A stretch of 64,000 bases of DNA, taken from positions 1,285-65,284 of the forward strand of contig JAHFNJ010000005.1 in NCBI GenBank assembly GCA_023267375.1. The letters run 5' to 3'. The notes beneath the pieces are model-generated. The model was given only the letters and a program-made list of their open reading frames with translations, had not been told where the DNA came from and made no database searches. This document shows, piece by piece, positions 1 to 46,037 of the stretch. The position numbers and the translations under genes are program-made. Position 1 is the first letter of the stretch. The number at the start of each line of letters is the position of its first letter. Source of the DNA: Candidatus Nomurabacteria bacterium (lineage in GTDB: Bacteria; Patescibacteriota; Minisyncoccia; Phycocordibacterales; UBA9973).

Positions 1-158
1 TTGGTGCCAAGTATGAAGCAAAGACTGAGCTTTCAAGTAAGAATCTTGCGGTGGCACTTGAGCCGGTGATGTTGGTAATAGTCTGGCTCGGTGTTGTCAT
101 GGTTGCGCTTGCTGTTATTTTGCCTATCTATAGTTTGATTGGAGGTGTGAATAAATAA
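1..158 (+). CDS. pilC: Type IV pilus assembly / T2SS platform protein PilC/GspF family, 3' end (partial, start outside window)
   Basis: Frame 3 translates to ...LAVALEPVMLVIVWLGVVMVALAVILPIYSLIGGVNK*, matching the conserved C-terminus of GspF/PilC inner-membrane platform proteins (LEP...G...LPI..L). Stop TAA at 156-158. It sits directly upstream of the pilin genes. Confidence 0.55.
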   Translation, partial: GAKYEAKTELSSKNLAVALEPVMLVIVWLGVVMVALAVILPIYSLIGGVNK

Positions 159-206
159 GAAGCAAGAGTGCTATACAATAAGTAATGCATAGAGGATTAT
201 ATTTGA

Positions 207-2507
207 ATGCTTCATGTCAATCGTCAAATAATAAAAGTGTGCAAGCAGCGGCTTTTTTCGTACACGAAAAGTGTTCGCGGTTTTACGCTTATTGAAGTAG
301 TTTTGGTGATTGCTGTGATAGCCATCATTTCAGTTGTTAGTATCCCGCTTTCGCAATCTATCATCGAGCAGAATAATCTCAACTCAGCTCTTGATGTTAT
401 TCGTACTGATTTAGTGAGTGCACGATCGTTCGCTACTTCAGGAAAAAATAATACCTCTTGGGGTGTTCATATTGAGGCAAATAACGTTACGCTTTTTTCT
501 GGTTCTTCATATGGAGAGAATCCTGATTTTGATCAAACGGAGGCAATTCCTCGGTCTATTACGATAGAGGGGACACTACTTTCCGGTCGCACTATTGATA
601 TTGTGTTTTTGGAATGGTCCGGGCTCCCTGTATTGGAATCTACTTCTGGAACAATCACGCTTACTACAGCTAGTGGTAAACAAAAAACACTTACAATCAA
701 TTCGCAGGGAGTGGTTTATTTGTCTCAAAATGTCTCAATTGTGGAAGTGTCGTGTCATGCGGCGTATTCGGGTGATTGGTCAAGCGGTAGTGCCAACAAT
801 GGAAATGGTATTTGGCGCGGGTGTCATGGATCAGGGGGAACTCCAGCGCAAGACGAAAATATCACGATTGATGATGGAGTTGCAGTATCGATTGACACCG
901 CTCTTTCAAAAGATTTTGGTGATATTACAATTCTGGGAACACTCACTAACAATAGCGGGTCAGGATTGGTTGCACGTTCATTAACAACTCAAAGTAGTGG
1001 TTCGTATACATCATTCGGGACGACCGTAACGCTTGGCGGGAACACGGGGACGCTGGTGACTGTCGATGATGGAAGTTCGATTGATTCAAGTACTCATTTT
1101 ATTATTACGAGCGATGCTGATATTCAGGTATTTGGCGGAACCAATATTGATTCCTTTTTTTCTGGGTTCTCAGGGTCAATTACTTTTTCTCCAACACTTT
1201 CTACTGCGAGGCAGTATGTCTTGGCTGATGGAGGACATTCTATTAGTAATGCGTTTAATATTCTCTCAACTTCTCATAGCGGAGGAGTATTAACACTTAC
1301 CATTGCTGGTAGTAACACTATCGATTCTTTGCATCTCACAAACAGTGGCGACGATGCGGTGCTCCTTCTTAGTGGGGCCAATACTATCAATACAACTACG
1401 TTACTTAATTCATCAGAAAATAAACGATTATCTCTAGGGACATGGGGTGAACAAATCTTGAATGATATTTCTCTGACTGCTGGGGCGCAGGATAGCACTA
1501 TCTTTTTTTCACCGGAGAGTTCGAATACTTACGGTTCGTTTTCAGCTACGGGGAGTGTCTCGTTGAATGCGCAGGTATCTTTTTTACCGAGTGCTGGTCT
1601 TACTCAGACATTTTCCGGTTTGATAAACTTTGGTGAAAATACTAATTTTGTAATAATTGCACCATTAGTTGATTTTTCGAATATTCCGTCACTCTCTTTC
1701 TATAATTTTACTATCCAAAATAATGGCTTTCCTGTCACGGCGACATTTCCATATGCAGTTACTACTGTTATTGCCAACAATTTTATAGTGACTGGTACAG
1801 CTGAAAATAGTATTACGCTCATTTCAAGTGATGATATTACACCGACGCAATTTCAGATTGCTGGTGATGCAAGTAAATTTACTGTTACGTATGCCGACAT
1901 AAAAGATGCTGGTTGCGCAGAGATAACGGGAACGGGAATTGGGACTGACGGGTTTATTACAACAGATACCTCTGTTGATTCTGGTAATAATGGTACCTGC
2001 TGGTTTAACCATGGTATCGATCAGTCTCAGACAACACTCGATGGTAACAACATTTCAATTGGGAAGACGAGCGGCAATGGTATTCATCGAATTGCACAAT
2101 CATTTATTCCGTCAGTCGGCACCGTCTCTGGTTTTTCTCTTTCAAAGTTTACTGGGGATACAAATGAAGGAGTAATTAGTGGTGACGTTATCGTTTCAAT
2201 AGAAGCAGATGATGGATCTGGGCACCCCGACCATACTCCTATTGTTTCTTATACGATTGCAAATCAAGATTGGATTGGTTTGTCGGAAGGTCCATTCTCG
2301 TTTTCCTTCGATACACCAGGATCCCTTACTGTTGGTAATACATACTATTTAGTTGTTGAGGCAACAAGTGCGGATAACTCAAATTATGCAAACATTGACA
2401 TCAATATAAGCGATCTTTATGCAAATGGCAGCCTCTCAATATTTGATGATGCTGGTCTTGTGCAAAACTATTCAGGATACGATCTGTATTTTGCAGTTTC
2501 TTATTAA
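207..2507 (+). CDS. Prepilin-type N-terminal domain protein with large (~700 aa) C-terminal region; minor pilin / pilus-tip adhesin candidate
   Basis: 766-aa ORF. N-terminus has a class III signal peptide: ...RGFTLIEVVLVIAVIAIISVV (G|FTLIE with Glu at +5). It is Ser/Thr/Gly-rich. Its C-terminal ~145 aa are homologous to the C-terminus of the next ORF. It contains a Cys motif YADIKDAGC...DSGNNGTCW shared with the 1897-aa protein. Confidence 0.6.
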   Translation: MLHVNRQIIKVCKQRLFSYTKSVRGFTLIEVVLVIAVIAIISVVSIPLSQSIIEQNNLNSALDVIRTDLVSARSFATSGKNNTSWGVHIEANNVTLFSGSSYGENPDFDQTEAIPRSITIEGTLLSGRTIDIVFLEWSGLPVLESTSGTITLTTASGKQKTLTINSQGVVYLSQNVSIVEVSCHAAYSGDWSSGSANNGNGIWRGCHGSGGTPAQDENITIDDGVAVSIDTALSKDFGDITILGTLTNNSGSGLVARSLTTQSSGSYTSFGTTVTLGGNTGTLVTVDDGSSIDSSTHFIITSDADIQVFGGTNIDSFFSGFSGSITFSPTLSTARQYVLADGGHSISNAFNILSTSHSGGVLTLTIAGSNTIDSLHLTNSGDDAVLLLSGANTINTTTLLNSSENKRLSLGTWGEQILNDISLTAGAQDSTIFFSPESSNTYGSFSATGSVSLNAQVSFLPSAGLTQTFSGLINFGENTNFVIIAPLVDFSNIPSLSFYNFTIQNNGFPVTATFPYAVTTVIANNFIVTGTAENSITLISSDDITPTQFQIAGDASKFTVTYADIKDAGCAEITGTGIGTDGFITTDTSVDSGNNGTCWFNHGIDQSQTTLDGNNISIGKTSGNGIHRIAQSFIPSVGTVSGFSLSKFTGDTNEGVISGDVIVSIEADDGSGHPDHTPIVSYTIANQDWIGLSEGPFSFSFDTPGSLTVGNTYYLVVEATSADNSNYANIDINISDLYANGSLSIFDDAGLVQNYSGYDLYFAVSY

Positions 2508-2542
2508 CGGTAAGAAGTAAAAATTTTTTTTCTAATGGTACA

Positions 2543-3508
2543 ATGAAGTACGTGGTTAAACAGCCTTATCACAATACTGCCGGTTTTACGTTAATTGAGC
2601 TCATGCTTGCCGTGGCGCTTTTAGGACTCGTGGCACTCGGTATTTTTTCGGGCGTTTTGTTTGGACAACAAAGTATTACCAATGCTGGTACGCGCAACCG
2701 TACCACAGCTGTTGCGAATGCTACACTTGATATCGTACGCGGGTTGCGCAGTCAGATTTTTGACACCAATACCATACTTGCTGATGGGACGTATGGACTA
2801 GAGAGAAGCACCGGGCGGTGGTTGCTCGATGTGAGCAATTACGGCACAGGGGATACAAACGATTCGACGGGGCTCTATCGGGAGATTGCCATTGATCGAT
2901 CCACCAACCCAGATCAAGCAAAAATAAAAATAACAGTCTGGTCATCAGGAGACAGCAATAGTAGTACCACCCAACCACTCTCTGTTTCCACTATTGTTTC
3001 AAATTGGGAGTCCTTTGTTGATCAACAGCAAGTCTCGCAAGATTCAGCGCTCTCGTTTGGAGAAGGTACTACGACCGGTTTTACGTATGGCATTGTGCAA
3101 TCGTTTGTACCAACGGTGAGTTCTATTTCGGGTGTACGTTTGTACAAAAAAGCAGACACAGGATCTTTTACTGCTGGCGTTCAAGTTTCAATATATGCTG
3201 ATGCTGGTGGAGTCCCAGATATTGGTAGCCTTGTCACGCAGCAGAGTGGGACTTCGTTGGAACTTACTGATTGGTGGGCAAGTCTCGATGTCGGCGTTTT
3301 TTCTGTCGATTTACCTGATGCTGGTTTGACTCCTGGGAATACATACTGGATCGCTGTGGAACCGACTGCTGTTGATATTTCTGGGTCGACGCATCCAAAT
3401 CTTGGTGTCTATTCATCTGGTGGATACGGGGATGTTGAAACGTATAATGCCGATGATGGATGGAGTGTTCCAACAGGGGAGAGTTTTTATTTTGAAACAC
3501 TGTATTAA
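2543..3508 (+). CDS. Prepilin-type N-terminal domain protein (minor pilin candidate) with C-terminal domain shared with upstream ORF
   Basis: 321 aa. N-terminus is ...TAGFTLIELMLAVALLGLVALGIF (prepilin cleavage/methylation motif). C-terminal ~145 aa align with the C-terminus of ORF 207-2507 (QSFVPTV..G..L....TG...G..V.I.AD.GG.P....G.TY...VE.T). Confidence 0.6.
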   Translation: MKYVVKQPYHNTAGFTLIELMLAVALLGLVALGIFSGVLFGQQSITNAGTRNRTTAVANATLDIVRGLRSQIFDTNTILADGTYGLERSTGRWLLDVSNYGTGDTNDSTGLYREIAIDRSTNPDQAKIKITVWSSGDSNSSTTQPLSVSTIVSNWESFVDQQQVSQDSALSFGEGTTTGFTYGIVQSFVPTVSSISGVRLYKKADTGSFTAGVQVSIYADAGGVPDIGSLVTQQSGTSLELTDWWASLDVGVFSVDLPDAGLTPGNTYWIAVEPTAVDISGSTHPNLGVYSSGGYGDVETYNADDGWSVPTGESFYFETLY

Positions 3509-3513
3509 AATAT

Positions 3514-4815
3514 ATGGATACTCAAGCAAATAATAATAAAAAATATTATCGCAAGATTTTAAAGAAGAGAATGAAGCCTAGCGCTACAGGCTTTACGCTC
3601 ATGGAAATCATGCTCTATATTGCTGGTCTCTCACTTATTGTGCTCGCCATTTCCGCTTTGTATGTTATTACGCAAAAAACGAGAATTAAAACGGAGGCGA
3701 TTACCGCAGTAGAAGATCAAGGAGTCTTTATTTCTGATTTTATTACACACAAAATCCATGACGCTGTTAGTTTGACAACGCCAGCTACTATTGGGGCAAG
3801 CGCGTCCTCGCTCCAATTTGTGACATCTACTGGTACCAGTGCCACTATTGGTGTCGACACTGATAGTGGCATTCCGTATTTCCAAAATAGTACGACGTTT
3901 AATTTGTCGGATGATAGGGTAAAGCTTTCCCCTCGCATATATGCTATCAGCGAGAGTTTATCGTTGCTAGAGTACGATAATGGATGGAAAAATAAATTCT
4001 CCATCGATTGCTGTGGACTTGTGCATATAGCTTCTGATAAATATGGAAACTTATATATCTCAATAGGGGACGAAAACAAAGTATTTAAATATAATGGAAA
4101 AACTGTAAGTGCTCTTGGAGATGCTAGTGACGGGTTAAATTATCCCATAGGGATGGCTGTCGATTTTTTCGGGAATCTCTATGTTGCGAATCGTGATAGC
4201 AGTTCAATAGTAAAGTATGATGGTGCTTCTTGGAGTGAATTTGCAAATGCGGGAGATAATATAAGTGTGCCCACGGGTGTGGCTATTGATTCTCAAAATA
4301 ATATATATGTAGCAAATATCAATAGTTCTGATAATACAATTCTAAAATATGATGGTATCTCCTGGACTAGTATTGCTTCGGTTTCGGATTTTGGCACAAC
4401 CCCACTTGATATTGCTGTTGATTTATTGGATAACGTATATGTGAGTATTCCTGGAGCGGGGGCAATTATGAAATATGATGGACTTTCATGGGTTGCTATC
4501 GGTTCCCCTAGCGATGGTCTAACATCACCTAGTAGTATTTCTATAGATGCATTTAATAATGTATATGTAAATAATCAAGAAGGCTATGGTTCCATTTTAA
4601 AATACGATGGCTTATCATGGGCCACGATAATACCCGAAAGTAGTGATACCCCTCTATCTTATGGGATTGGTGCGGTTGGTCCCATAACATTTACTCGTGA
4701 TTCGGCAGATACTATCTCATATCGTTTTACGCTTAGTTCCAATACGACCAATACTGGCAATGAATATCAATATTCAAAAACATTTACCGGTACCGCATCA
4801 CTTCGGGTAAACTAA
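3514..4815 (+). CDS. Prepilin-type N-terminal domain fused to NHL-repeat beta-propeller
   Basis: 433 aa. N-terminus is ...TGFTLMEIMLYIAGLSLIVLAISALYV (pilin-like). C-terminal half has 5-6 NHL-type repeats (NLYVANRDSSSIVKYDG; NIYVANINSSDNTILKYDG; NVYVSIPGAGAIMKYDG; NVYVNNQEGYGSILKYDG). The 3' half is AT-rich. Confidence 0.6.
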   Translation: MDTQANNNKKYYRKILKKRMKPSATGFTLMEIMLYIAGLSLIVLAISALYVITQKTRIKTEAITAVEDQGVFISDFITHKIHDAVSLTTPATIGASASSLQFVTSTGTSATIGVDTDSGIPYFQNSTTFNLSDDRVKLSPRIYAISESLSLLEYDNGWKNKFSIDCCGLVHIASDKYGNLYISIGDENKVFKYNGKTVSALGDASDGLNYPIGMAVDFFGNLYVANRDSSSIVKYDGASWSEFANAGDNISVPTGVAIDSQNNIYVANINSSDNTILKYDGISWTSIASVSDFGTTPLDIAVDLLDNVYVSIPGAGAIMKYDGLSWVAIGSPSDGLTSPSSISIDAFNNVYVNNQEGYGSILKYDGLSWATIIPESSDTPLSYGIGAVGPITFTRDSADTISYRFTLSSNTTNTGNEYQYSKTFTGTASLRVN

Positions 4816-4838
4816 ACAATCGTTATGTTATATACTGT

Positions 4839-5801
4839 ATGTATCGAATGAACATTACTACGTCAAATACTACTGGTGGATATATTGCCCTTATGACGGT
4901 TATTATTGTGGCGACAGTTATTTCTGCTATCAGTGTGTCGATGCTTGCAAAGGGGACAAGTAGTTCCCAAGAAAGTTTGTCCGCATTACAGTCACAGCAA
5001 TCTCTTGCCTATGCAAGTGGGTGTATCGAAGCAGTACTCCTTGATTTAAAAACTGGCTCTACAACAGCCAACCAATATTTCCCTTCAGCAGATTTGTATC
5101 CGCTCACTGGAGTAGATATTAATGCTTTAGTAACACAACCTGTGTTACTTGAAAATCCAAATGGTGATGATTGCACCTATGCACTCGATTTAACAAATTT
5201 CTCTCAATTGAATACGCTGGCAACTGGTTCGATTACGGCGACAGGTTTTTCTGGTCCCGTCTCGAGTCAGATCGTCGCGACATTTTCAGGTAATCTCGAA
5301 AGTACTGAACCGATGATTATTAGTAACCTGTCCATCACTACATGGCATGAAAAGCCATATTTAAGTTTAAGTGTTTCCGATTCAAACGATGTTTTTGCTG
5401 TTTGGGAAGAAGACTCAGGAGATGTTCGTTGTGATGATTTGTCGACTGTCTGCGCAAAAACCTACACGATCGCAAACAATGGCGACAGTACGTTGACCTA
5501 TGATGTCACTGCGGATAAAAGCTGGGTCGTATTAGGTGGTGATCCATCGACGGGGACGTTGGGTGGTGGGCAGACTGCCACGATTCAAGTTTCTATTTCA
5601 ACCGATACATTACCTGATACACTGGCAACATCACCAACGTATCCAACGACGCCGATTGCAACTGCGACAATACAATTTGGTTTTGTGAGTTATCAAAATG
5701 GTGCCGGCGCAACAACACGCACGGTCAATTTTATGGTGCCTTCCGGGGTGACTGTCGGGAAGGCTGGTGCTACCATAGAAGGACTAGTTGCTATAAGATA
5801 A
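4839..5801 (+). CDS. PilX-like minor pilin / pilus assembly protein
   Basis: 320 aa. N-terminus is ...GGYIALMTVIIVATVISAISVSMLAKGTSSSQESLSALQSQQSLAYASGCIEAVL, which resembles the PilX N-terminal domain architecture (short leader, hydrophobic helix, then conserved A/E/G-rich segment). The rest is Thr/Ser-rich. Confidence 0.45.
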   Translation: MYRMNITTSNTTGGYIALMTVIIVATVISAISVSMLAKGTSSSQESLSALQSQQSLAYASGCIEAVLLDLKTGSTTANQYFPSADLYPLTGVDINALVTQPVLLENPNGDDCTYALDLTNFSQLNTLATGSITATGFSGPVSSQIVATFSGNLESTEPMIISNLSITTWHEKPYLSLSVSDSNDVFAVWEEDSGDVRCDDLSTVCAKTYTIANNGDSTLTYDVTADKSWVVLGGDPSTGTLGGGQTATIQVSISTDTLPDTLATSPTYPTTPIATATIQFGFVSYQNGAGATTRTVNFMVPSGVTVGKAGATIEGLVAIR

Positions 5802-5804
5802 AAC

Positions 5805-8800
5805 ATGGCTGAAACATATACAATTAGAAATGGTGCGCTCAAGAAAGTGTTTTCTTTTTTTTCAAAGCGCAGCAAACTCTTTTTTACCATAGGGGTTTGT
5901 ATGTTTCTTTTTCTCGCCTCACCACACTCGGCATTTGCGGTGAATACTTGTGTTTCAAATGCAAGTGGTAACTGGAATACTGCAGCGACGTGGACTTCTT
6001 GTAGTAGCACTGTGCCACAAACAGGGGATTCAGTAAGAATTAGTAGCGGTCATTCAGTGGTAATGGATGTCGATACACCAGTACTTGGAAATGTGACAGT
6101 AAGAGGAACACTCAATACGTCAGATGGTGTAACGAGTCATACTCTCTCAGCTTCTCAGCTTTTTGTTGGAGAAAGTCTCGGAGGATATAACGGTACCTTT
6201 ATTGCTAACTCTTCTACTATCAATCTTTCAGGGACATCTGCTGTGTTGAGTATTCAAACAACTAGTAGTATTTTTACCTATGGCACTTCTACTGTAAATT
6301 TCACTGGTAACAGTGTTTCAGGTATGATTAATTTAGCATCTTCAGGTTCAGTTACCTTGTATAATGTAAACTCATCAGGAACCGGCACAAAGACAATAAG
6401 CTTAGCGAACGCTACCATCACAATTGCTAATGTCTTTACTATTTCTGCAGGCACTGTTGCGTTTTCAACAGCTGTGACCTCTGCGAACCTCATACTTTCA
6501 GGCACTACGGGTACACCACTTAATCTTACTGGTGGAAGTTTTACGGCCACAGGGAACAACACTACCGTTACGTATTCTGGAAATAATGCCGCGGGTAATA
6601 CCACTGTTGCCGCAGCTACATATGGCTCTTTGACTTTAAATAACAGCAGTGAGAGGTATCAACTTGGCGGAGATATTACTGTGGGTGGTACAACTATTAT
6701 ATCGGCCAGCACCGAGTTTACTTCGAGTGATGGGACAGATCATAACTTAACCACTGGCGGTCTTGTTATTTCCTCAAATGCGCTCTTCCTCATGAATAGT
6801 TCGACTATTACTATTACAGGTAATGCAAATACTGTTGCTAGTCAATTTACAAATTCTTCCAGTCGCCAAGACGCGATTGCTGCCGGAACCTCTACTATTA
6901 AGTTTACTGATACAAGTGTCTATTCTAAAACAATGAGCTCTGCTACTGCCACCTTTTATAATCTTTGGATAACTGGAACTGGAACTGGAACATATACTAT
7001 TACTGGGAGTGGTAGTAGCTCTTTTACTTTTAACGACATAAAAGATGATAATACTTCTGCGCATACGGTTAGTTTAAATTCAACCATATATGTAAACACC
7101 TTTAATGTTTCTGGGGCGGATAGTTCGCATAAAATTTCACTTACAAAGGCTGGTGGGGCAGGTGTTCTACATAAGACGAGTGGGTATGTAAGTATTGACT
7201 ATGTGAATATCGCGAACCTTACAGCTCAAGGTGGTGCTGCGTTTTATGCTGGTTCACACAGTACTGATAACGGAGGTAATTCTGGATGGATTTTTGGAGA
7301 TCCTTCATGCACAGCAACAACAAGCGGTGATTGGAATACGGGAGGGAATTGGACTGGTTGCTCGGGCGGTGGCGGTATTCCAGGAACATCAGATAACGTG
7401 ATAGTTCCTTCTGGAATAAATCTCACACTGAGCACGAACACAGCTACACTTGGAAATGTAAACGTGGCTGGCTCGATTGACACAACTGGCTCAAACTACG
7501 CAATCAATGCAGCGGGGCTTGTTATAAGTTCAACAGGTACAGTTATTGCAAATGGTTCAACTATTACACTCTCAGGTACGGGGGCGGCATTTTCTCTTTA
7601 TGGGGGGATATTTAGTGCCGGAACTTCAACAATTAATTACACAAACAGTTCAAGTGCTGCTAAAGCATTTACGGGTGGCAACGGAACATTTAATAATGTT
7701 ACTTTTACTACCGGTAGTACAGGAACATATACTATTACGGGTAACAATACATTCAACATTTTCTGGATTACTGGAACAGGGACAGGAACGTTTACATTTT
7801 CTAGTTCTTCCAATACTTTTACTGAACTAAAAGATGATAATACTTCTGCTCATTCCATCTTTGGAAATTCTTCTACGCAAACAGTGACAACTTTTTCTGT
7901 ATCGGGTGCCGATAGTTCGCATAAAATAAACTTTGGTTTAAACGTTTCAAAATCAAGTGGGGTTGTTGTTGCAAATTACCTGACTCTTACTGGTAGTGTT
8001 GCGAGCGGTGGGGCCTCGTGGTATGCCGTAAACAGTAATAATGGGGGCGGTGGAACATCAGGTTGGGTTTTTATTAGTGGTTGTGTAGCGATAACAACAG
8101 GAAATTGGAATACGGGAAGTAATTGGAGTGGTTGTACTGGTGGAGGAGGGGTTCCGGCGGCTGCGGACACTGTCACCATTGTATCTGGTGTAACAACTAC
8201 ACTTGATGTAGCGACTCCTGTTGTCACTGGCCTCACTGTTTCTGGCACGCTTGATACTAGTGTCACAAATTATGCACTCAATACAACGACACTCACCATT
8301 AGTTCCGGGGGAACGCTTACTGCTAATGGTTCAACCATTACACTTTCTGGAACTTCTGGAACGCTGTTTACAAACTCAGGTACTTTTACTGCAGGTACTT
8401 CGACGGTCGATTTCTCTGGAGCGAGTTCCGTAACTCTTAATTCTGGATCAATTACATTTTATAACCTCACTGTTTCTGGTGGCACTGTTGCAACAGTCAA
8501 AACACTCGGCGCCGCCACTACGCTTGCCTCTGGTGGTACGCTGACTGTTTCTGCGGGGACATTTGATCCAAGTACGTATCTTGTTACTGGTAATGGTTCA
8601 AACACTCTGGTTGTGGCTGGTGGAGCGGTTGCTCGAGTGAAAGCATCTACGTTTACAGGGAATTATTCATCGGGTTTCAGTAGCACTTCGTTTGCCGCCA
8701 ATTCCACTATTGATTACACCTTAAACGGTACGCAGACAGTTGATAGCACTATAAGTTATGTTAATTTGACGGTTTCAACGGGAGGAACAAAATCGTTGAA

Positions 8801-11498
8801 CGGATCGACTGTTGCCACGGGCACGACTACAATTAGTTCTGGGGCGACACTTACTACTACCGCGTCAAATTATGCGCTATCGACCGGGACGATTTCAATT
8901 GCTGGTACGCTCACTGCGAATGCCGCTACTATCTCGCTCTCGGGGACAGGTTCACTTTGGACAAAAACTGGAACGTTTACTCAAGGAACCTCAACAATAA
9001 AACTCACGGATGCATCTTCATCGAGTAAAACATTTGCAGGTGGTGGTGGAACGTTTTATAACTTCTGGATTTCTGGAACTGGTACTGGAGCATATACTAT
9101 TTCAGGTTCGAACACCTTTTCTACTTTTAAGGATGATAATACTTCAGCACACACCGTAAACTTTACTGCGAGTACAACACAAACAGTAACGACGTGGACT
9201 GTTTCTGGTGCAAGTAGTTCAAACAAGATTACAATGCAGAGTACTTCTTCTGGTAGTGCATGGAATTTGTCGAAATCAAGCGGAACAGTTACTTCAAATT
9301 ATTTGATTTTGCAAGATAGTCATGCTGCCGGTGGGGCAACCTGGAATGCAAACGGTAGTACAAATGTATCGGGGAACACCGGTTGGAATTTTGGCACGGT
9401 TTCTTGTACCTCAGTAGCTACTGGAGCTTGGAACACTTCTGCTACGTGGGATTGTAGTCATGTGCCTGCAACTGGTGAAACTGTTACCATCGCGGCTTCT
9501 CATGTTGTGACAATGGATGTTAATTCAGCGGTGCTCGGTTCTATTACTATTAGTGGAACCCTGACGACGAGTGCGAGTAATTACAGTTTGTCTGGAACAA
9601 CGATCACTATCGGTTCTAGTGGAACACTCACTGCCAACAGTTCAACCATTACGCTTTCTGGAACCTCTGGAACGTTGTTTACAAAAACAGGAACATTTAC
9701 AGCTGGGTCATCAACGGTGGTACTTTCAGGAAATGGATCTGCATCGGTAAATTCAGGTTCTATAATTTTCTACAATCTGACTTCTTCAGGGACAGGAACT
9801 AAAACAATTACAGGAACTACTGAAGTTGGTGGTGTGCTTACTGTTTCTGCTGGAGTATTCAGACTCAGTTCCGGTACGCTGGTACTTTCCGGAATTTCTG
9901 GGACACCAATTGTAAATTCAGGGACGATAAGTACTTTAAGCGCGACTACTGTTGTTTTTAGTGGTGATAATCCAGGGGGTAATACCACCATTCCTTCGTC
10001 AATCTCTTACTACAACCTCTCTTTTAATGGTACTGACACATACGATCTTTCAGGTGAAACAACCGTAAATGGGTCATTAGCAATTTCACAAGGAACTCTT
10101 TCTGCAGGGGCGCAGTATCTCAACGTTGCTAGAGATTGGATAAACTCCGTTGGAGTAGGTGGTTTTAGTGCTGGCACAGGGAGAGTTATCTTAAATACTG
10201 CTAATGACAGCACTATTACTGGCGCAACAACTTTTAATGATCTGACTATTTATTCTACTGGTGGTAAAAATGTATACTTTTCATATCAGGGTGGCGACAT
10301 TATCACTGTTGGTGGATCATTTGTTGTTACTGGATCTTCTGGGTCTCTTGTGTATCTCCGTTCAACGAGCTCGGGAAGTCAGTGGCATCTTTTGCCACAA
10401 GGTTCAGCGACGGTTGACTACGCCGACGTGATGGATGGTGGTTGTGAATCAGGAGCAATCACTATCACTGACAACCTTACAGATACTTCGATTGATTCGG
10501 GCAACAATGATTCATGCTGGTCATTCTTTGTGTCGCCTGCGGTGCGGTACATGCTTACGTCTGCAAATACTATGGATGTGTACGGCATCGGTGGTGGTTA
10601 TGGAGGATCGCCCGCGAGTCCGACTAAAATCCGTTCAGTTGCGCTTTCTGGTGGTTATACGCGCGTACAGCCAAAAAGTATTTTTGCTGAGGGGAGAACT
10701 GGTCGCATTTATGTGGCAACTAGTGATTCAAATGGGGAACTGCAAGTTTATGAAACAAATAATTATAACGGTTCAGGAAGTTCACCATCAAATCCGAAGT
10801 TGCTCACTACATACAATGCTTCTGTTTCTGGTACTGGAAATCGAGTTTGGGCGGATAGTGCCGGGAACGTGTTACTTGCCGTGTCGTCTGATACCACTGG
10901 CTCACTCATACTGCTTAACTCGAGCGGGGAAGCTGTTTCAAGTGCGAGTGCCCCAGCTACTATAAGTGATATCGCTGTGTATAAAGATACCGGTAGTACT
11001 GGATATGTGTATGTGGGTTCAGATGATACAACACTCCATATTTATTATTTTGATTCAGGTGGGGTGTATGACACAGGTAGCACTTTTGATATTGCGGTTG
11101 CTTCTCCGTATATAACTTCAGTAACAGCAGGCTCAGGCACAAAACTTGCGTACACTACTCTTGGTTCTGATCAGCTCTATTTAACAAATGATATTTCTCT
11201 CGATCCCGCGAATGCTAGTAATTCGTTGGTAACCGCTGAGAACTCTTCACTAGACACAGAGGTCCAAGGAGCTATCACTGCTTCAAGTTTGGGTGAGGTG
11301 CTCTTTGTTCCCGGTGCTGATGGGCTCTATCAGCCATATGTAAGTAATATTGCGGTGATTATTAATCCAGGAAACTACGCACCCTACACTCTCTCTGGGG
11401 GATTGACTGGTGTCTTTTATGATTCGACTGCAGTACATCTTTTTGGTTCTTCCGCTGTTGATGGGACGATACATTCGTTTGAACCGTATATACCGTAG
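5805..11498 (+). CDS. Giant (1897 aa) secreted repetitive surface protein; putative adhesin of the pilus locus
   Basis: Signal peptide ...FLFLASPHSAFA|VN. Four ~300-450 aa tandem modules each begin with a G(N/D/A)WNT..(N/T)W..C motif. Three internal sub-repeats of the form F(Y/N)(N/I)FWI(T/S)GTGTG...DDNTSAH...SGA(D/S)SS(H/N)KI were found. The unique C-terminal ~400 aa contains YADVMDGGCESGAITITDNLTDTSIDSGNNDSCW, shared with ORF 207-2507. Ser/Thr/Gly/Asn-rich. Confidence 0.7.
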   Translation: MAETYTIRNGALKKVFSFFSKRSKLFFTIGVCMFLFLASPHSAFAVNTCVSNASGNWNTAATWTSCSSTVPQTGDSVRISSGHSVVMDVDTPVLGNVTVRGTLNTSDGVTSHTLSASQLFVGESLGGYNGTFIANSSTINLSGTSAVLSIQTTSSIFTYGTSTVNFTGNSVSGMINLASSGSVTLYNVNSSGTGTKTISLANATITIANVFTISAGTVAFSTAVTSANLILSGTTGTPLNLTGGSFTATGNNTTVTYSGNNAAGNTTVAAATYGSLTLNNSSERYQLGGDITVGGTTIISASTEFTSSDGTDHNLTTGGLVISSNALFLMNSSTITITGNANTVASQFTNSSSRQDAIAAGTSTIKFTDTSVYSKTMSSATATFYNLWITGTGTGTYTITGSGSSSFTFNDIKDDNTSAHTVSLNSTIYVNTFNVSGADSSHKISLTKAGGAGVLHKTSGYVSIDYVNIANLTAQGGAAFYAGSHSTDNGGNSGWIFGDPSCTATTSGDWNTGGNWTGCSGGGGIPGTSDNVIVPSGINLTLSTNTATLGNVNVAGSIDTTGSNYAINAAGLVISSTGTVIANGSTITLSGTGAAFSLYGGIFSAGTSTINYTNSSSAAKAFTGGNGTFNNVTFTTGSTGTYTITGNNTFNIFWITGTGTGTFTFSSSSNTFTELKDDNTSAHSIFGNSSTQTVTTFSVSGADSSHKINFGLNVSKSSGVVVANYLTLTGSVASGGASWYAVNSNNGGGGTSGWVFISGCVAITTGNWNTGSNWSGCTGGGGVPAAADTVTIVSGVTTTLDVATPVVTGLTVSGTLDTSVTNYALNTTTLTISSGGTLTANGSTITLSGTSGTLFTNSGTFTAGTSTVDFSGASSVTLNSGSITFYNLTVSGGTVATVKTLGAATTLASGGTLTVSAGTFDPSTYLVTGNGSNTLVVAGGAVARVKASTFTGNYSSGFSSTSFAANSTIDYTLNGTQTVDSTISYVNLTVSTGGTKSLNGSTVATGTTTISSGATLTTTASNYALSTGTISIAGTLTANAATISLSGTGSLWTKTGTFTQGTSTIKLTDASSSSKTFAGGGGTFYNFWISGTGTGAYTISGSNTFSTFKDDNTSAHTVNFTASTTQTVTTWTVSGASSSNKITMQSTSSGSAWNLSKSSGTVTSNYLILQDSHAAGGATWNANGSTNVSGNTGWNFGTVSCTSVATGAWNTSATWDCSHVPATGETVTIAASHVVTMDVNSAVLGSITISGTLTTSASNYSLSGTTITIGSSGTLTANSSTITLSGTSGTLFTKTGTFTAGSSTVVLSGNGSASVNSGSIIFYNLTSSGTGTKTITGTTEVGGVLTVSAGVFRLSSGTLVLSGISGTPIVNSGTISTLSATTVVFSGDNPGGNTTIPSSISYYNLSFNGTDTYDLSGETTVNGSLAISQGTLSAGAQYLNVARDWINSVGVGGFSAGTGRVILNTANDSTITGATTFNDLTIYSTGGKNVYFSYQGGDIITVGGSFVVTGSSGSLVYLRSTSSGSQWHLLPQGSATVDYADVMDGGCESGAITITDNLTDTSIDSGNNDSCWSFFVSPAVRYMLTSANTMDVYGIGGGYGGSPASPTKIRSVALSGGYTRVQPKSIFAEGRTGRIYVATSDSNGELQVYETNNYNGSGSSPSNPKLLTTYNASVSGTGNRVWADSAGNVLLAVSSDTTGSLILLNSSGEAVSSASAPATISDIAVYKDTGSTGYVYVGSDDTTLHIYYFDSGGVYDTGSTFDIAVASPYITSVTAGSGTKLAYTTLGSDQLYLTNDISLDPANASNSLVTAENSSLDTEVQGAITASSLGEVLFVPGADGLYQPYVSNIAVIINPGNYAPYTLSGGLTGVFYDSTAVHLFGSSAVDGTIHSFEPYIP

Positions 11499-11527
11499 AT
11501 ATATCTATAATGTAAGGTTTGTTGTGG

Positions 11528-11536
11528 TGGTATAAT
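11528..11536 (+). promoter_or_regulatory. Extended -10 promoter element (TGgTATAAT) 8 nt upstream of the ATG of ORF 11545; possible leaderless transcript
   Basis: Sequence tggTATAAT at 11528-11536, with start codon at 11545. Confidence 0.35.
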
Positions 11537-11544
11537 AAAAATAC

Positions 11545-12078
11545 ATGCAGAGTAAACATAAGAAGATTATCGTAAGGGGTTCACTGCTCATCGTCTGTGT
11601 GGGAGTCTTTTTGTATGTCTATATTAGAAATACGGCAATTCGTGCTCCAGTATCGCCAATAGTTATACCAGAGGTAAGTCCTTTGCCAGAAAATGCTGAT
11701 AATCTCACCGGCGCAGATCTTGCTGCATACAACGAACGAATTGCATGGAAATCCTTATACGTGGGAAATCAAAAGCAGCTAAAAACAGCACAGCGTTTTT
11801 CATTGCCTGCTGGTTGGATTATCCGCGAGGATTATTTGTTTACTGTTTTGCCGCCAACGCTTGAATCAAAAATAAAAACCCATCGCGCTATTATTATGCG
11901 TCCACAAAAAACAATGAGTCGTGACGATGCTATTTTTACTGTAGTTAATACAAGTGATTCGTATTTGCAAAATCGTTGCCATAAAAGCACTACAAAGGTG
12001 AGTGTCTGCTATGGCGGGTCTAATCCCGAGACAAAGCAGGTGTTTGATTTACTCTTTTATCAATTCAAAGTACAATAA
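11545..12078 (+). CDS. Hypothetical membrane-anchored protein
   Basis: 177 aa. N-terminal TM helix (LLIVCVGVFLYVYI). No recognisable domain. Located between the giant protein and the major pilin genes. Confidence 0.5.
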   Translation: MQSKHKKIIVRGSLLIVCVGVFLYVYIRNTAIRAPVSPIVIPEVSPLPENADNLTGADLAAYNERIAWKSLYVGNQKQLKTAQRFSLPAGWIIREDYLFTVLPPTLESKIKTHRAIIMRPQKTMSRDDAIFTVVNTSDSYLQNRCHKSTTKVSVCYGGSNPETKQVFDLLFYQFKVQ

Positions 12079-12080
12079 TA

Positions 12081-12635
12081 GTGGGTATGAACAATAAGAA
12101 AATCAAAAGAGTTTTACATAAAGGTTTCACCCTTCTTGAAATCCTCCTTGTTGTTGCGGCAATTGCTATTTTGGCGGCAGTTGTTATTCGGGCGCTCAAT
12201 CCATCAAAACAGCTTGCTGATACGCGAAACTCGCAACGATCACTTGATTTGAATACCATTGTGAATGTTATCTATCAATACGAGATTGATAATAAAGGAG
12301 CTCTTCCTGATACTGATGCTAATGGGGGAGTCCTCATTCCGGTTGGCACCTATGATGCATCTGACCCAGACAATATCATCGATGACTCAGTAGAAATATG
12401 TCGATCGACAAGTACTGCAGATTGTGCAACAAATGGGCTCGTTGATTTATCTCCACTGCTTGAAAATAAAAAGTATATCGTTGCCATCCCAAACGATCCT
12501 TCCAACACCGATCCCGATGGCACCGGGTATTTCATTGTACAAGATTCAGAAAGTAACCGTATTACAGTGATAGCTCCAAACACAGAGCTTGAGCCAACAA
12601 CGTCGCTTCTAGTGCCACTCAACGCTTCTTTGTAA
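12081..12635 (+). CDS. pilA: Type IV major pilin (PilA-like), paralog 1
   Basis: 184 aa. Begins ...KGFTLLEILLVVAAIAILAAVVIRALNPSKQLADTRNSQRSLDLNTIVNVIYQYEIDNKGALP, a classic class III signal with G|FTLLE and a conserved N-terminal alpha-helix. C-terminal globular part is divergent. Confidence 0.8.
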   Translation: MGMNNKKIKRVLHKGFTLLEILLVVAAIAILAAVVIRALNPSKQLADTRNSQRSLDLNTIVNVIYQYEIDNKGALPDTDANGGVLIPVGTYDASDPDNIIDDSVEICRSTSTADCATNGLVDLSPLLENKKYIVAIPNDPSNTDPDGTGYFIVQDSESNRITVIAPNTELEPTTSLLVPLNASL

Positions 12636-12735
12636 AAGGAAATTTTCACTGTGGATAACTAAACTTCGTTAGTATTTCGATGTGCAGTATACTGTCTATA
12701 TTAGTAATTAGGTTTTTTTGTTCCATTTTTAATAT

Positions 12736-13347
12736 ATGAAAAAGAAATTAGGTTTATCATTTCGAAATAACAAAGGCTTCACTCTCCTTGAAATCCTCCT
12801 TGTTGTTGCGGCGATCGCTATTTTGGCGGGTATTGTTATTTTGGCGATAAATCCAGGTAAACAACTCGGCGATACTCGTGATGCGCAACGTAGAGTTGAT
12901 GTAAATACAATCTTGAATGCAATTTATCAATATGCTATCGATAATGGAGGCGCTTTCCCAGGAGATCTTGATGGTAGCAACAACTGTATCAGTGGCAATA
13001 CGTGTGTATCTGGTGCAATTGCGATTCCAGAAGGTACCGCGCCAACTCTTCCACTTGTTATAGATCCATCGGATCTTTCTGTTGATTCAGGCGATGTCGG
13101 TGCTGCTGTTGAGATTTTGAAGTACGACGGTACTTGTGATGCTTCTGGTACTGGATTGGTTGATATTTGTACTGATCTAACAGAAGATGGTGTGTATCTC
13201 GCTGGTATTCCTAATGACCCTTCGCTTAACACTACTGTTGATCCTCATGGTACTGGATACTGGATTTACAAGACCAGCAGTGGCCGTATTACCGTGATTG
13301 CTCCGTTTGCCGAACAAGCAGCGAGTGGTATTAGTGTGACGCGTTAA
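12736..13347 (+). CDS. pilA: Type IV major pilin (PilA-like), paralog 2
   Basis: 203 aa. Begins ...KGFTLLEILLVVAAIAILAGIVILAINPGKQLGDTRDAQRRVDVNTILNAIYQYAIDNGGAFP. The N-terminal ~75 aa and the underlying DNA (about 12123-12180 vs 12775-12832) are near-identical to paralog 1; the C-terminus is divergent. Confidence 0.8.
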   Translation: MKKKLGLSFRNNKGFTLLEILLVVAAIAILAGIVILAINPGKQLGDTRDAQRRVDVNTILNAIYQYAIDNGGAFPGDLDGSNNCISGNTCVSGAIAIPEGTAPTLPLVIDPSDLSVDSGDVGAAVEILKYDGTCDASGTGLVDICTDLTEDGVYLAGIPNDPSLNTTVDPHGTGYWIYKTSSGRITVIAPFAEQAASGISVTR

Positions 13348-20432: not shown

Positions 20433-20446
20433 TGTAGTAAATTTTT

Positions 20447-24241: not shown

Positions 24242-24389
24242 AATGCGAGCGAAGCAAGACAACTGCTTGTCTTGCGTTGGGATTTGAACAGCGGAGCTAT
24301 GTTTTACAAGCTTGCAAAACAAGCGAGCTGGTGCCCAGACCGAGCCGAGTGGCGACGAGGCGAGAGTCGCGGGAAAATCCCATCGCTTA

Positions 24390-24433
24390 CACACATAAGA
24401 AAATTCCCATAAAAAGGAATTTTCTTATGTGTG
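24390..24433 (+). promoter_or_regulatory. Perfect 18-bp stem hairpin 35 nt upstream of the AsnB-like gene start
   Basis: CACACATAAGAAAATTCC-cataaaaa-GGAATTTTCTTATGTGTG: 18/18 complementary pairs with an 8-nt loop. No clean T-run follows, so it is more likely a regulatory or protein-binding structure than a terminator. Confidence 0.4.
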
Positions 24434-46035: not shown

Positions 46036-46037
46036 GT

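What the first reader, a model, noticed from the sequence alone, without database searches (positions are those of the whole stretch)
1..13347. Type IV pilus locus with an unusual set of pilin-fused giant proteins and a 1897-aa repetitive protein
The locus runs: pilC 3' end, then a 766-aa, a 321-aa and a 433-aa protein each beginning with a bona fide prepilin signal (G|FTL(I/M)E). These are followed by a PilX-like protein, a 1897-aa signal-peptide protein, a small membrane protein and two tandem major pilins. Canonical minor pilins are 150-200 aa, so the pilin N-termini fused to 300-700 aa Ser/Thr-rich or beta-propeller C-terminal modules are unusual. The giant non-pilin protein sharing a motif with a pilin fusion makes this look like a modular pilus-tip adhesin system, possibly for host or particle attachment, that does not match the PilY1/PilV/W/X paradigm.
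Basis: partly seen in the sequence, partly recalled or inferred. Interest (0 to 1): 0.7.

Follow-up and report, generated by a model that had tools for sequence, protein, structure and literature searches.

The report
Pilus-tip adhesin cassette in ultra-small bacterium
This is a type IV pilus operon from an uncultured ultra-small (Patescibacteria/CPR) bacterium in which all four standard tip "minor pilins" carry extra binding domains and a giant secreted protein sits where other bacteria encode the tip adhesin PilY1; it is a striking but not unprecedented example of a known design.

Summary
In detail: every ORF lies at the stated coordinates, and five prepilin N-termini cluster here and nowhere else in the 64 kb. 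The 766-, 321-, 433- and 320-aa proteins are not an exotic set. They are the canonical core minor pilins in canonical order (GspH/ComGD-, GspI/PilV-, GspJ/ComGF-, GspK/PilX-like, the last lacking Glu5), each enlarged by an add-on module. Relatives (PilC 59-66% identical, Nomurabacteria-like) keep the pilin "carrier" modules but swap the cargo. Two relatives hold a compact cassette (154 / 547-751 / 172-174 / 130-134 aa) between the same flanking genes. The NHL propeller of the 433-aa pilin is inserted inside the pilin fold, not appended. The 1897-aa protein (signal peptide, four G8/beta-helix modules, a ~325-aa C-terminal probable propeller) belongs to a family of giants found inside the minor-pilin operons of four other genomes. 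They share a conserved C-terminus and variable N-terminus, which is PilY1's architecture without PilY1 sequence similarity. Modular pilins, including large CPR ones, and accessory-domain minor pilins in Saccharibacteria are already published. Verdict: a real feature and a new variant of a known kind. Tip docking of the giant is inferred, not shown; both structure predictions failed.

The parts
3..158 (+). 3' end of pilC (T2SSF platform protein)
   Evidence: Frame-3 translation ends ...ILPIYSLIGGVNK*. The full 361-aa PilC with Pfam T2SSF lies on source contig L001, preceded by PilB (MshEN+T2SSE) and a receiver-only response regulator.
207..2507 (+). H-class minor pilin (GspH/ComGD/FimU-like), 766 aa. 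Pilin module aa 1-175 (nt 207-731, cleavage SVRG|FTLIE). One G8-type beta-helix module aa ~183-600 (nt 753-2006). Unassigned beta domain 'JR' aa 604-766 (nt 2016-2504).
   Evidence: N_methyl 24.1 bits; ComGD/GspH best hits, sub-cutoff. The pilin module is 34-40% identical to 153-165-aa pilins that follow pilC in L005/L006 and to L003/L007 (H-HMM). The middle module is homologous to the p1897 modules at E 1e-27.
2543..3508 (+). I-class minor pilin (GspI/PilV/ComGE-like), 321 aa. Pilin module aa 1-158. 'JR' beta domain aa 159-321 (nt 3017-3505), shared with p766.
   Evidence: N_methyl 30.4 bits; XpsI/GspI/PilV hits, sub-cutoff. 35% identical over aa 6-157 to the L003 251-aa pilin (E 2e-25). I-HMM. 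JR is 33-36% identical to the p766 C-terminus and is not found in any relative.
3514..4815 (+). J-class minor pilin (GspJ/ComGF/PRK10557-like), 433 aa, with a six-bladed NHL/SBBP beta-propeller (aa ~141-391, nt 3934-4686) inserted into the pilin fold.
   Evidence: aa 10-139 match 172-184-aa pilins of L005-L008 (E 1e-11 to 1e-18), and aa 393-432 match their C-termini. The J-HMM hits both 16-140 and 392-432. SBBP 40.9 bits and NHL 33.4 bits are above cutoffs. Six KYDG.SW blades. The true start may be Met20, giving a 6-aa leader (by inspection).
4839..5801 (+). K-class (GspK/PilX/ComGG-like) tip protein, 320 aa, without Glu5. Core aa 1-172. Ig-like (BACON-like) add-on aa 173-320 (nt 5355-5798).
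   Evidence: An HMM of the 130-133-aa orthologues hits it at E 5.9e-13 among 172 window ORFs, next best 0.023. N-terminus GG|YIALM matches KG|YITLI etc. in orthologues. GspK hit E 3e-4, sub-cutoff. BACON_2 23.7 bits, just below the cutoff of 25.
5805..11498 (+). 1897-aa secreted giant. Sec signal aa 1-45. Four G8-headed, presumably beta-helical modules aa ~46-1572. Conserved C-terminal domain 'GCT' aa 1573-1897 (nt 10521-11495), a probable beta-propeller.
   Evidence: G8 E 1.7e-29 in 4 stretches. Module caps and repeats. The C-terminal ~500 aa align end to end with the giants of L005, L006 and L007 and L011 (E 4e-84). GCT alone scores 76 and 71 bits against L005 and L011. No LPXTG or hydrophobic C-terminal anchor.
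11545..12078 (+). 177-aa single-pass membrane protein, a conserved component of these pilus loci; role unknown.
   Evidence: 43-47% identical to proteins just upstream of RR-PilB in L005 and L006 (E 5e-32 and 6e-37), and present in L011. No Pfam or NCBIfam hit.
12081..12635 (+). Candidate major pilin 1 (184 aa; 182 aa if it starts at the ATG at 12087).
   Evidence: N_methyl 22.3 bits; GspG best hit. 54% identical to the L005 183-aa pilin.
12736..13347 (+). Candidate major pilin 2 (203 aa), 50% identical to pilin 1.
   Evidence: N_methyl 27.8 bits; paralogy; orthologues in L003, L005 and L008.
13362..15641 (+). CHASE-PAS-HisKA-HATPase sensor kinase flanking the cassette; conserved at this position in relatives.
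   Evidence: Pfam. The same kinase follows the pilins in L008 and L010.

Best explanation
The region is the variable half of a type IV pilus (T4P) operon of a Nomurabacteria-like Patescibacteria (CPR) bacterium. After pilB-pilC come the four core minor pilins in canonical order: H (GspH/ComGD-like), I (GspI/PilV-like), J (GspJ/ComGF-like) and K (GspK/PilX-like, no Glu5). Each consists of a conserved pilin 'carrier' plus a lineage-specific beta-rich 'cargo'. H carries a beta-helix module plus the JR domain, I carries the JR domain, J has an inserted NHL propeller, and K carries an Ig-like domain. Next come a Sec-secreted 1897-aa protein (four G8/beta-helix modules plus a conserved C-terminal probable propeller), a conserved small membrane protein, two major pilins and a CHASE sensor kinase. 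Inferred mechanism: as in other T4P and T2SS systems, the four minor pilins bundle through their N-terminal helices into the complex that primes assembly and ends up at the filament tip. There they display four different binding modules at once. The giant, which has no anchor of its own, is proposed to ride on this complex through its conserved C-terminal domain, as PilY1 does, presenting its variable beta-helix region at the extreme tip. Together they would form a multivalent, probably glycan-directed adhesin for attachment to a host cell or surface. The cassette is exchanged or remodelled between close relatives, consistent with a role in specificity. Shown here: gene content, orthology, module boundaries, synteny and module shuffling. 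Inferred: tip location, docking of the giant, ligand class. The confidence of 0.6 is for the whole statement: about 0.85 for 'core minor pilins with cargo modules' and about 0.4-0.5 for 'the giant is docked at the tip'.
For: Pilus context: PilC end and RR-PilB-PilC upstream. Prepilin signals. H-I-J-K orthology to compact sets in nine related loci, with independent validation on L009-L011 and consistent family matches by position. Conserved carrier with swapped cargo: p766 and p321 pilin modules are 34-35% identical to the L003 pilins while the C-termini are unrelated. Same chromosomal slot (UvrD..RR-PilB-PilC | cassette | CHASE-HK-pheS-pheT-gyrB) holding about 3.6 kb in L008/L010 and about 13 kb here. 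Giants with a homologous C-terminus sit inside or beside the minor-pilin genes in L005, L006, L007 and L011. The same module kinds move between carriers. The GCT domain is cargo of I pilins in L005, L006, L007 and L010. An NHL-type propeller sits on the H pilin in L003 but inside J here. An Ig/BACON-like domain sits on I pilins in L005 and L007 but on K here. The G8 module is on both H and the giant. Literature: a minor-pilin/PilY1 priming and tip complex, PilX/GspK lacking Glu5, and PilY1 as type I signal + variable N-terminus + conserved C-terminal propeller (PMC7541494); modular pilins as tip adhesins (PMC8179133); Saccharibacteria PilX1/PilX2 with jelly-roll and propeller domains needed for host binding (PMC11623550).
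Against: All H/I/J/K family matches are below NCBIfam's curated cutoffs, so class assignment rests on order, consistency and the Glu5 pattern. p433 has no Pfam N_methyl hit. The giant shows no sequence similarity to PilY1 (no Pfam hit at E<=0.1; no PDB hit for the C-terminal profile). Its C-terminal domain also occurs as pilin cargo, so it could be a binding module rather than a docking module. Both AlphaFold runs were low confidence (pLDDT 47.7 and 39.6), so no fold is established. The propeller call rests on LVIVD hits in 2 of 4 relatives, a marginal hhalign result (P 0.006) and Foldseek on a poor model. No PilD, PilT or PilM/N/O was seen in the window. There are no expression or proteomic data.
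Confidence: 0.6

Rival explanations
1. The giant is an independent surface or secreted protein, either an adhesin or a polysaccharide-degrading beta-helix enzyme. It is co-located and co-regulated with the pilus genes but is not attached to the pilus. Only the four modular pilins decorate the tip.
For: No PilY1 similarity. The GCT domain also appears as cargo on I pilins, so it behaves like a binding module. G8/beta-helix architecture is typical of carbohydrate-active proteins (established knowledge; G8 hit). In L003 the large LVIVD protein next to pilC ends in a sequence that looks like a peptidoglycan-binding domain by inspection, suggesting wall attachment rather than pilus attachment.
Against: Five of five giants with this C-terminus are embedded in or adjacent to minor-pilin genes, in three different gene orders. 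p1897 has no recognisable wall or membrane anchor. The pattern of a conserved C-terminus with a variable N-terminus mirrors PilY1 (PMC7541494).
Confidence: 0.3
2. The system is a T2SS-like or Com-like pseudopilus rather than a long adhesive pilus. A short H-I-J-K-tipped piston pushes the giant protein, as a substrate, through the cell wall, or the filament serves mainly for DNA uptake.
For: The best matches of the pilins are to T2SS pseudopilins and ComG proteins (GspG for the majors; ComGD/E/F/G and GspH/I/J/K for the minors). The gene order equals comG/gsp order. No pilT is in the window. Giant genes preceded by T2SS-like loci with small class-III-signal genes are reported in Omnitrophota (bioRxiv 10.1101/2023.11.21.568195). 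PilY1 has been likened to a T2SS substrate (PMC7541494). CPR pili are proposed to take up DNA (PMC8080830).
Against: All those matches are sub-threshold and reflect the shared ancestry of type IV filaments. Bulky adhesin-type modules on every minor pilin make little sense for a buried piston. No secretin or outer-membrane component is present in the locus. CPR cells do display long T4P involved in host binding (PMC11623550).
Confidence: 0.12
3. The enlarged genes are decaying or chimeric products of recombination in a hypervariable slot, with add-on domains that are non-functional passengers.
For: The slot is highly plastic between close relatives. The JR domain is found only here. The proteins are singletons at 90% identity.
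Against: All eight ORFs are intact with tight operon spacing. Module boundaries respect domain limits, and the pilin C-terminal strand is retained after the propeller insert. JR is kept in two paralogous copies at only 33% identity, which implies long-term selection. Identical sequences were recovered from two independent samples.
Confidence: 0.05

Closest known systems
Modular type IV pilins (Streptococcus sanguinis PilB-vWA and PilC-lectin; InterPro survey of >1,200 proteins in 264 architectures, including an 860-aa Candidatus Falkowbacteria pilin with 12 LVIVD-type repeats) - Raynaud et al. 2021, PMC8179133; Shahin et al. 2023, PMC9934059
   Same: An N-terminal pilin module acts as carrier and a grafted non-pilus domain as functional cargo. 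The expected location is the tip and the expected role is adhesion to proteins or glycans. CPR examples are already listed. The paper also noted that PilY1 N-terminal modules are shared with modular pilins, as p766 and p1897 share modules here.
   Different: Here all four core minor pilins are modular at once. One cargo (NHL propeller) is inserted inside the pilin fold rather than appended. The JR cargo matches no Pfam family. A non-pilin giant shares modules with them. None of this is experimentally characterised.
Nanosynbacter lyticus TM7x (Saccharibacteria) T4P-1/T4P-2 minor pilins PilX1 (beta-jelly-roll) and PilX2 (7-bladed propeller) - Grossman et al. 2024, PMC11623550
   Same: A CPR bacterium. 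Minor pilins with T2SS-pseudopilin similarity. Large accessory beta domains (propeller, jelly-roll-like). A tip candidate lacking a canonical PilD signal. A proposed glycan-binding role in host attachment.
   Different: A different CPR class with no detectable sequence relationship tested here. TM7x has one enlarged pilin per locus and no reported giant non-pilin partner. Here the propeller sits in the J-class pilin, which has a canonical G|FTLME signal.
PilY1/PilC tip adhesin with FimU-PilV-PilW-PilX (Myxococcus, Pseudomonas, Neisseria) - Treuner-Lange et al. 2020, PMC7541494
   Same: Four core minor pilins plus a large non-pilin protein encoded together. [quoted passage not shown] The Glu5-less fourth pilin is adjacent to it. 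A two-component system is linked to the operon.
   Different: No PilY1 domain was detected. The organism has no outer-membrane secretin context. The N-terminal region is G8/beta-helix repeats instead of vWA. The C-terminal domain also occurs fused to I-class pilins in relatives.
Omnitrophota giant genes preceded by T2SS/T4P-like loci with small class-III-signal genes - West-Roberts et al. 2023, bioRxiv 10.1101/2023.11.21.568195
   Same: Very large secreted repeat proteins are genomically coupled to a type IV filament machinery. The proposed function is prey or host adhesion and carbohydrate attack.
   Different: A different phylum, much larger proteins and secretin-containing loci. No evidence of module sharing with pilins is described in the passages read.
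comG operon / T2SS gspG-K of model bacteria
   Same: The gene order is ATPase, platform, then H(D)-I(E)-J(F)-K(G)-class pilins. The best, sub-threshold, HMM matches fall in that order.
   Different: The major pilins are at the end of the operon instead of before the minors. The minor pilins are 2-5 times larger. Adhesin-type cargo is absent from Com and T2SS pseudopilins.

Membership tests
Type IV pilin (class III signal peptide) | Short leader ending in Gly, then F/M at +1, Glu at +5 and a ~20-residue hydrophobic helix; Pfam PF07963 / TIGR02532 above threshold | tested here: met
   p766, p321, p184 and p203 score PF07963 24.1, 30.4, 22.3 and 27.8 bits against a cutoff of 21.2, and TIGR02532 is above 16.3. 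p766 residue 26 aligns to residue 1 of solved pilins. p433 has the motif ATG|FTLME visible in sequence and a J-HMM match, but no PF07963 hit at E<=0.1.
Type IV pilin (class III signal peptide) | Cleavage and N-methylation by the prepilin peptidase PilD | not testable with these tools
   No pilD was found in the window. Testing needs biochemistry or co-expression.
Core minor pilins GspH-I-J-K / FimU-PilV-W-X / ComGD-E-F-G | Four consecutive pilin genes of distinct classes in H-I-J-K order next to the assembly genes | tested here: met
   The order of best matches is ComGD/GspH, XpsI/GspI/PilV, PRK10557/ComGF, GspK. The same holds for orthologues in five relatives. Four distinct HMM classes recur in nine loci.
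Core minor pilins GspH-I-J-K / FimU-PilV-W-X / ComGD-E-F-G | Score above the curated cutoff of the family-specific models | tested here: not met
   All equivalog hits are far below cutoff, for example ComGD 27 bits against 70, XpsI 20 against 150, GspK 20 against 130. These are divergent class-level relatives, not members of the named equivalogs.
Core minor pilins GspH-I-J-K / FimU-PilV-W-X / ComGD-E-F-G | The fourth (K/PilX) member lacks Glu5 | tested here: met
   p320 reads GG|YIALM. Orthologues read KG|YITLI, NG|YVTLV and KG|YVTLM. The Glu5 rule is taken from PMC7541494.
Modular pilins (sensu Raynaud et al. 2021) | An N-terminal pilin module plus an additional domain not specific to pilus biology | tested here: met
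   p433 has SBBP 40.9 and NHL 33.4 bits, above cutoffs. The p766 middle module is homologous to the G8-bearing modules of p1897. In p321 and p766 the JR domain is separable from the pilin module, although JR matches no Pfam family.
PilY1 / PilC tip adhesin | C-terminal PilY1 beta-propeller domain (Pfam PF05567 / IPR008707) | tested here: not met
   No such hit was found in p1897 at E<=0.1 or in four giant C-termini at E<=1. The profile against PDB sequences gives nothing better than E 0.41. PilY1 is not among the top 50 Foldseek hits of the low-confidence model.
PilY1 / PilC tip adhesin | Type I signal, variable N-terminus, conserved C-terminal domain, encoded with the core minor pilins | tested here: met
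   An AFA|V signal is seen by inspection (one search prints the N-terminus). The C-terminal ~500 aa are conserved among five giants of 1732-3117 aa. All are in minor-pilin neighbourhoods. This supports 'works like', not membership.
PilY1 / PilC tip adhesin | Physical association with the minor-pilin complex and the pilus tip | not testable with these tools
   This needs multimer modelling with deep alignments, pull-downs or cryo-ET.
G8-domain / right-handed beta-helix proteins | Pfam G8 (PF10162) above gathering score | tested here: met
   p1897 scores 102.6 bits against a cutoff of 22.9, in 4 stretches. The beta-helix fold itself is inferred from family knowledge and was not modelled.
LVIVD-repeat beta-propeller | Pfam LVIVD (PF08309) repeats in the C-terminal domain | tested here: inconclusive
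   p1897 itself has no hit. Two of four orthologous giant C-termini hit it (best E 1.5e-4). The GCT-related I-pilin cargo of L005 and L007 passes the cutoff (25.7 and 24.8 bits against 20.2). hhalign against a clear LVIVD protein gives P 0.006.
   No DUF4082 hit was found in either JR copy at E<=5. No PilX_N hit was found in p320 at E<=0.1.

The most novel reading that the evidence does not exclude
The GCT-bearing giants define a new, PilY1-unrelated class of pilus-tip-docked adhesins in outer-membrane-less CPR bacteria. Their conserved C-terminal propeller would plug onto the Glu5-less K pilin or the J pilin. Their beta-helix modules, like the cargo of the four minor pilins, would be drawn from a common pool that is shuffled between pilin and non-pilin carriers. 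The pilC-to-kinase slot would then be a swappable host-range cassette that determines which host or surface glycans an episymbiont can grasp.
Probability: 0.3. Interest if true: 0.7.

Novelty: new variant of a known kind. Interest (0 to 1): 0.45.

Why it matters
How ultra-small episymbiotic bacteria recognise and hold their hosts is largely unknown, and type IV pili are the leading candidates. This locus and its relatives offer a natural experiment: one conserved machine, four conserved carrier pilins and a swappable set of binding modules in a fixed chromosomal slot. They also include a giant partner that copies PilY1's architecture without its sequence. If the giant really docks at the tip, the minor-pilin-plus-large-adhesin design would extend to bacteria without an outer membrane. 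It would also give concrete candidate host-specificity determinants to express and test on glycan arrays. If not, the locus remains a well-resolved example of already described modular pilins.

Tried and rejected
With p321 it found only the protein itself.

2. The exhaustive HMMER search of 1.84 billion representatives returned a single repetitive, evidently spurious protein. I first read this as orphan status and then rejected that reading. The search did not return p1897 itself, nor the L005 and L011 giants, which score 76 and 71 bits locally at the same database size.

3. Both AlphaFold2 jobs failed: GCT as a single sequence (pLDDT 47.7) and p321 with a two-row alignment (pLDDT 39.6). The tool does not accept the locus sequences that would have made a useful alignment. 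I ran one Foldseek search on the poor GCT model. Every hit is a propeller but TM is only 0.3-0.38, so I treat it as a hint. I ran no search on the p321 model.

4. The PDB sequence search with p320 gave nothing. The p766 N-terminus matched only generic pilin helices.

5. The metagenome scan with a PilC alignment returned one distant Firmicutes-type locus (L004) with ordinary 113-186-aa minor pilins. It serves only as a size reference.

6. The DGR idea, prompted by a bAvd gene in L007: no reverse transcriptase and no template/variable repeat pair is present in the window.

7. Promoter and terminator scans were at shuffle level. Rfam found only tRNAs.

Full report
**1. What is there**

There are eight co-directional genes between nt 207 and 13347, separated by 2-100 nt. 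They are preceded by the last 51 codons of a PilC/GspF platform protein in frame 3 (stop at nt 156-158). A CHASE-PAS histidine kinase follows them.

The source contig was recovered by exact protein look-up. It shows a UvrD/PD-(D/E)XK helicase, a membrane protein with Pur_ac_phosph_N (fn3-like) repeats, a receiver-only response regulator, PilB (MshEN+T2SSE) and PilC immediately upstream. A second, independent sample carries identical 766- and 321-aa proteins.

The rest of the window is chromosomal housekeeping: pheS/T, gyrB, thrS, pentose-phosphate genes and a complete purine pathway. PilC relatives identify the organism as a Patescibacteria/CPR bacterium. Its nearest named relatives are Candidatus Nomurabacteria, at 64% PilC identity.

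**2. The prepilin signals are real and specific**

- Pfam N_methyl passes its gathering score in p766, p321, p184 and p203, and TIGR02532 agrees.
- p766 aligns to solved pilins with its residue 26 as mature residue 1.
- p433 shows ATG|FTLME but gets no N_methyl hit.
- A strict motif scan of all six frames of the 64 kb finds sites only in this locus.

**3. The four large proteins are the canonical core minor pilins**

NCBIfam's best, sub-cutoff, matches fall in the order ComGD/GspH, XpsI/GspI/PilV, PRK10557/ComGF/GspJ and GspK.

I fetched loci around PilC relatives of 59-66% identity. Local BLAST and HMMs show that each window protein has orthologues at the same relative position. The classification was validated on three loci that were not used to build the HMMs (L009-L011). 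The orthologues give the same family matches by position.

The fourth protein lacks Glu5 here and in every orthologue (GG|YIALM, KG|YITLI and so on). This is the hallmark of PilX/GspK (PMC7541494).

Sizes in aa:

| Locus | H | I | J | K |
|---|---|---|---|---|
| Window | 766 | 321 | 433 | 320 |
| L008 | 154 | 547 | 172 | 130 |
| L010 | 154 | 751 | 174 | 134 |
| L005 | ~160 | 613 | 181 | 133 |
| L006 | 153 | 623 | 184 | 131 |
| L007 | 395 | 641 | 184 | truncated |
| L009 | 393 | ~240 | 177 | 146 |
| L011 | 308 | ? | 205 | 241 |
| L003 | 734 | 251 | truncated | ? |

It is that paradigm with add-ons.

**4. Carrier and cargo**

The pilin modules are conserved while the cargo is not.

- **Unrelated C-termini.** p766 aa 14-175 is 34% identical to the L003 734-aa pilin, and p321 aa 6-157 is 35% identical to the L003 251-aa pilin. 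Their C-termini are unrelated.
- **H (p766).** The cargo is one G8-type module homologous to the giant's modules (E 1e-27), plus a ~160-aa beta domain I call JR.
- **I (p321).** The cargo is a second JR copy, 33% identical to the first.
- **J (p433).** The cargo is a six-bladed NHL/SBBP propeller inserted between aa ~140 and ~392. The last 40 residues match the C-termini of ordinary J pilins, and the J-HMM hits both flanks.
- **K (p320).** The cargo is an Ig/BACON-like domain.

JR matches no Pfam family, including DUF4082, and occurs in none of the relatives.

The same kinds of module appear on other carriers elsewhere:
- An NHL-type propeller sits on the H pilin of L003.
- LVIVD propeller repeats plus a weaker BACON-like Ig match sit on the I pilins of L005 and L007.
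- A paralogue of the p433 propeller is a free-standing protein at 34247-35203.

**5. The slot**

In L008 and L010 the same flanking genes (UvrD helicase..RR-PilB-PilC on one side, CHASE kinase-RR-pheS-pheT-gyrB on the other) enclose a compact ~3.6-kb H-I-J-K-major-pilin cassette. The window holds ~13 kb in that slot. Another relative has a 1124-aa N_methyl pilin followed by three more large NHL-rich proteins. Large modular pilins are thus common in this clade. What is particular to the window is that all four classes are enlarged at once, and that J, otherwise 172-205 aa, carries an insertion.

**6. The giant**

- **Architecture.** p1897 has a Sec-type signal (AFA|V, by inspection). It has four modules that each open with a G8-type C..G.W....W..C head (G8 E 1.7e-29) and close with a Gly-rich cap. 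A distinct ~325-aa C-terminal domain (GCT) follows.
- **Repeats.** Its DNA repeats are 63-77% identical, so they are old duplications.
- **Anchor.** It has no LPXTG motif, no hydrophobic tail and no wall-binding domain.
- **Conservation.** Its last ~500 residues align end to end with the C-termini of giants in L005 (1732 aa), L006 (3117 aa), L007 (1820 aa) and L011 (1967 aa). GCT alone scores 76 and 71 bits against L005 and L011.
- **Gene neighbourhood.** All five giants lie among minor-pilin genes but in different orders. The window has H-I-J-K-G, L007 has H-I-G-J-...-K, and L005, L006 and L011 have G-J-K-major.

This combination (type I signal, variable N-terminus, conserved C-terminal beta domain, encoded with the core minor pilins) is PilY1's architecture (PMC7541494). 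There is, however, no PilY1 sequence signal.

GCT is probably a beta-propeller, but the evidence is weak:
- LVIVD hits in 2 of 4 orthologues.
- hhalign P 0.006 against a clear LVIVD protein.
- Propeller-only Foldseek hits from a low-confidence model.

A GCT-like domain is also cargo of the I pilins of L005, L006, L007 and L010. That can be read two ways. It could be a fusion hint that GCT sits at the tip next to the I pilin, or it could mean that GCT is simply another binding module.

**7. Other components**

p177 is a conserved single-pass membrane protein of these loci. p184 and p203 are paralogous candidate major pilins. The CHASE kinase and the receiver-only regulator bracket the operon in several relatives.

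**8. Mechanism**

I propose, with about 0.6 confidence overall, that H-I-J-K form the priming and tip complex and display four different beta-rich modules. I propose, at about 0.4-0.5, that the giant is held at the tip through GCT. Together they would form a multivalent, probably glycan-directed adhesin. The cassette's turnover between relatives would tune specificity.

Gene content, orthology, module boundaries and synteny are shown here. Location, docking and ligand are inferred.

The rivals are:
- The giant is an independent surface protein or enzyme (0.3).
- The system is a T2SS/Com-like pseudopilus that exports the giant or takes up DNA (0.12).
- The add-ons are non-functional recombination debris (0.05).

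**9. Comparison with what is known**

- **Modular pilins** are an established concept, with more than 1,200 catalogued examples. These include CPR proteins and an 860-aa LVIVD-repeat pilin. The same paper observed that PilY1 N-terminal modules are shared with modular pilins (PMC8179133).
- **Saccharibacteria** minor pilins with propeller and jelly-roll add-ons contribute to host binding (PMC11623550).
- **Giant genes** next to T2SS-like loci are reported in Omnitrophota (bioRxiv 10.1101/2023.11.21.568195), and giant surface proteins in a predatory CPR bacterium (PMC8080830).

Against this background the locus is a new variant of a known kind. Its new elements are the simultaneous decoration of all four core minor pilins, a propeller inserted inside a J-class pilin, the unannotated JR and GCT domains, and a conserved giant family embedded in minor-pilin operons that exchanges modules with the pilins.

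**10. Limits**

- All class assignments rest on sub-threshold family matches plus order and orthology.
- Both structure predictions failed, because the tool would not accept the locus sequences needed for a useful alignment.
- The exhaustive-search negative is unreliable for the reason given.
- The synteny sample is about ten loci from one clade.
- pilD, pilT and pilM/N/O were not seen in the window.

Noticed in passing
L007:20503-20883 (between the J-class pilin at 19914-20468 and a K-class ORF starting at ~20880): A bAvd / 23S_rRNA_IVP four-helix-bundle gene, the accessory protein of diversity-generating retroelements, sits inside the minor-pilin gene set of a relative. It could mark a DGR that diversifies a pilus-tip protein, or it could be one of the stand-alone copies.
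   Followed up: partly
window 29360-35203: A second cluster of surface proteins. It holds a 1059-aa NHL + Big_7 protein, a 530-aa minus-strand protein with a T9SS-type Por_Secre_tail sorting domain (odd for a CPR bacterium, which is expected to lack an outer membrane), and a 318-aa NHL/BNR protein that is a paralogue of the propeller inserted in p433.
   Followed up: partly
window 43054-58182: A near-complete de novo purine biosynthesis cluster (purL/purQ-like, purF, purN, purD, purK, purE, purM, purC, purB). From my own knowledge, many CPR genomes are reported to lack nucleotide synthesis, so this is worth a look.
   Followed up: no
window 24277-27561: A 1094-aa ORF fusing glutamine-amidotransferase/asparagine-synthase domains to an NMT1/THI5-like domain. 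This is an unusual architecture.
   Followed up: no
window 15686-16396; L008:17803-18525; L010:18348-19043: PheS is only 231-240 aa in the window and its relatives. From my own knowledge the usual bacterial size is about 330-350 aa, which suggests loss of the N-terminal domain in this clade.
   Followed up: no
L001:2886-4256; L003:6495-7904; L005:3411-4739; L006:2781-3917: A membrane-anchored protein made of several Pur_ac_phosph_N / fn3-like repeats is conserved next to RR-PilB-PilC or the pilin genes in several relatives. It may be a further unrecognised pilus-machine or wall-spanning component.
   Followed up: no
window 8868-9317 (p1897 aa 1022-1171) vs L007:18309-18758: One sub-module of the giant ('TFYNFWI.GTGTG...KDDNTSAH') is 57% identical to the L007 giant, against about 30% for the rest of the shared region. 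This suggests either strong constraint or recent module exchange.
   Followed up: no
L003:11070-14111: In this relative the gene right after pilC is a 1013-aa signal-peptide protein. It has about 15 clear LVIVD-type repeats, two Ig-like repeats and a C-terminus that looks like a peptidoglycan-binding domain by inspection. It appears to be a wall-anchored counterpart to the anchor-less giant of the window.
   Followed up: partly
search tool behaviour: The exhaustive representative-library search returned neither the query's own parent protein nor relatives that score 70-76 bits locally. Negative results from it for long, low-complexity CPR proteins should not be read as orphan status.
   Followed up: yes
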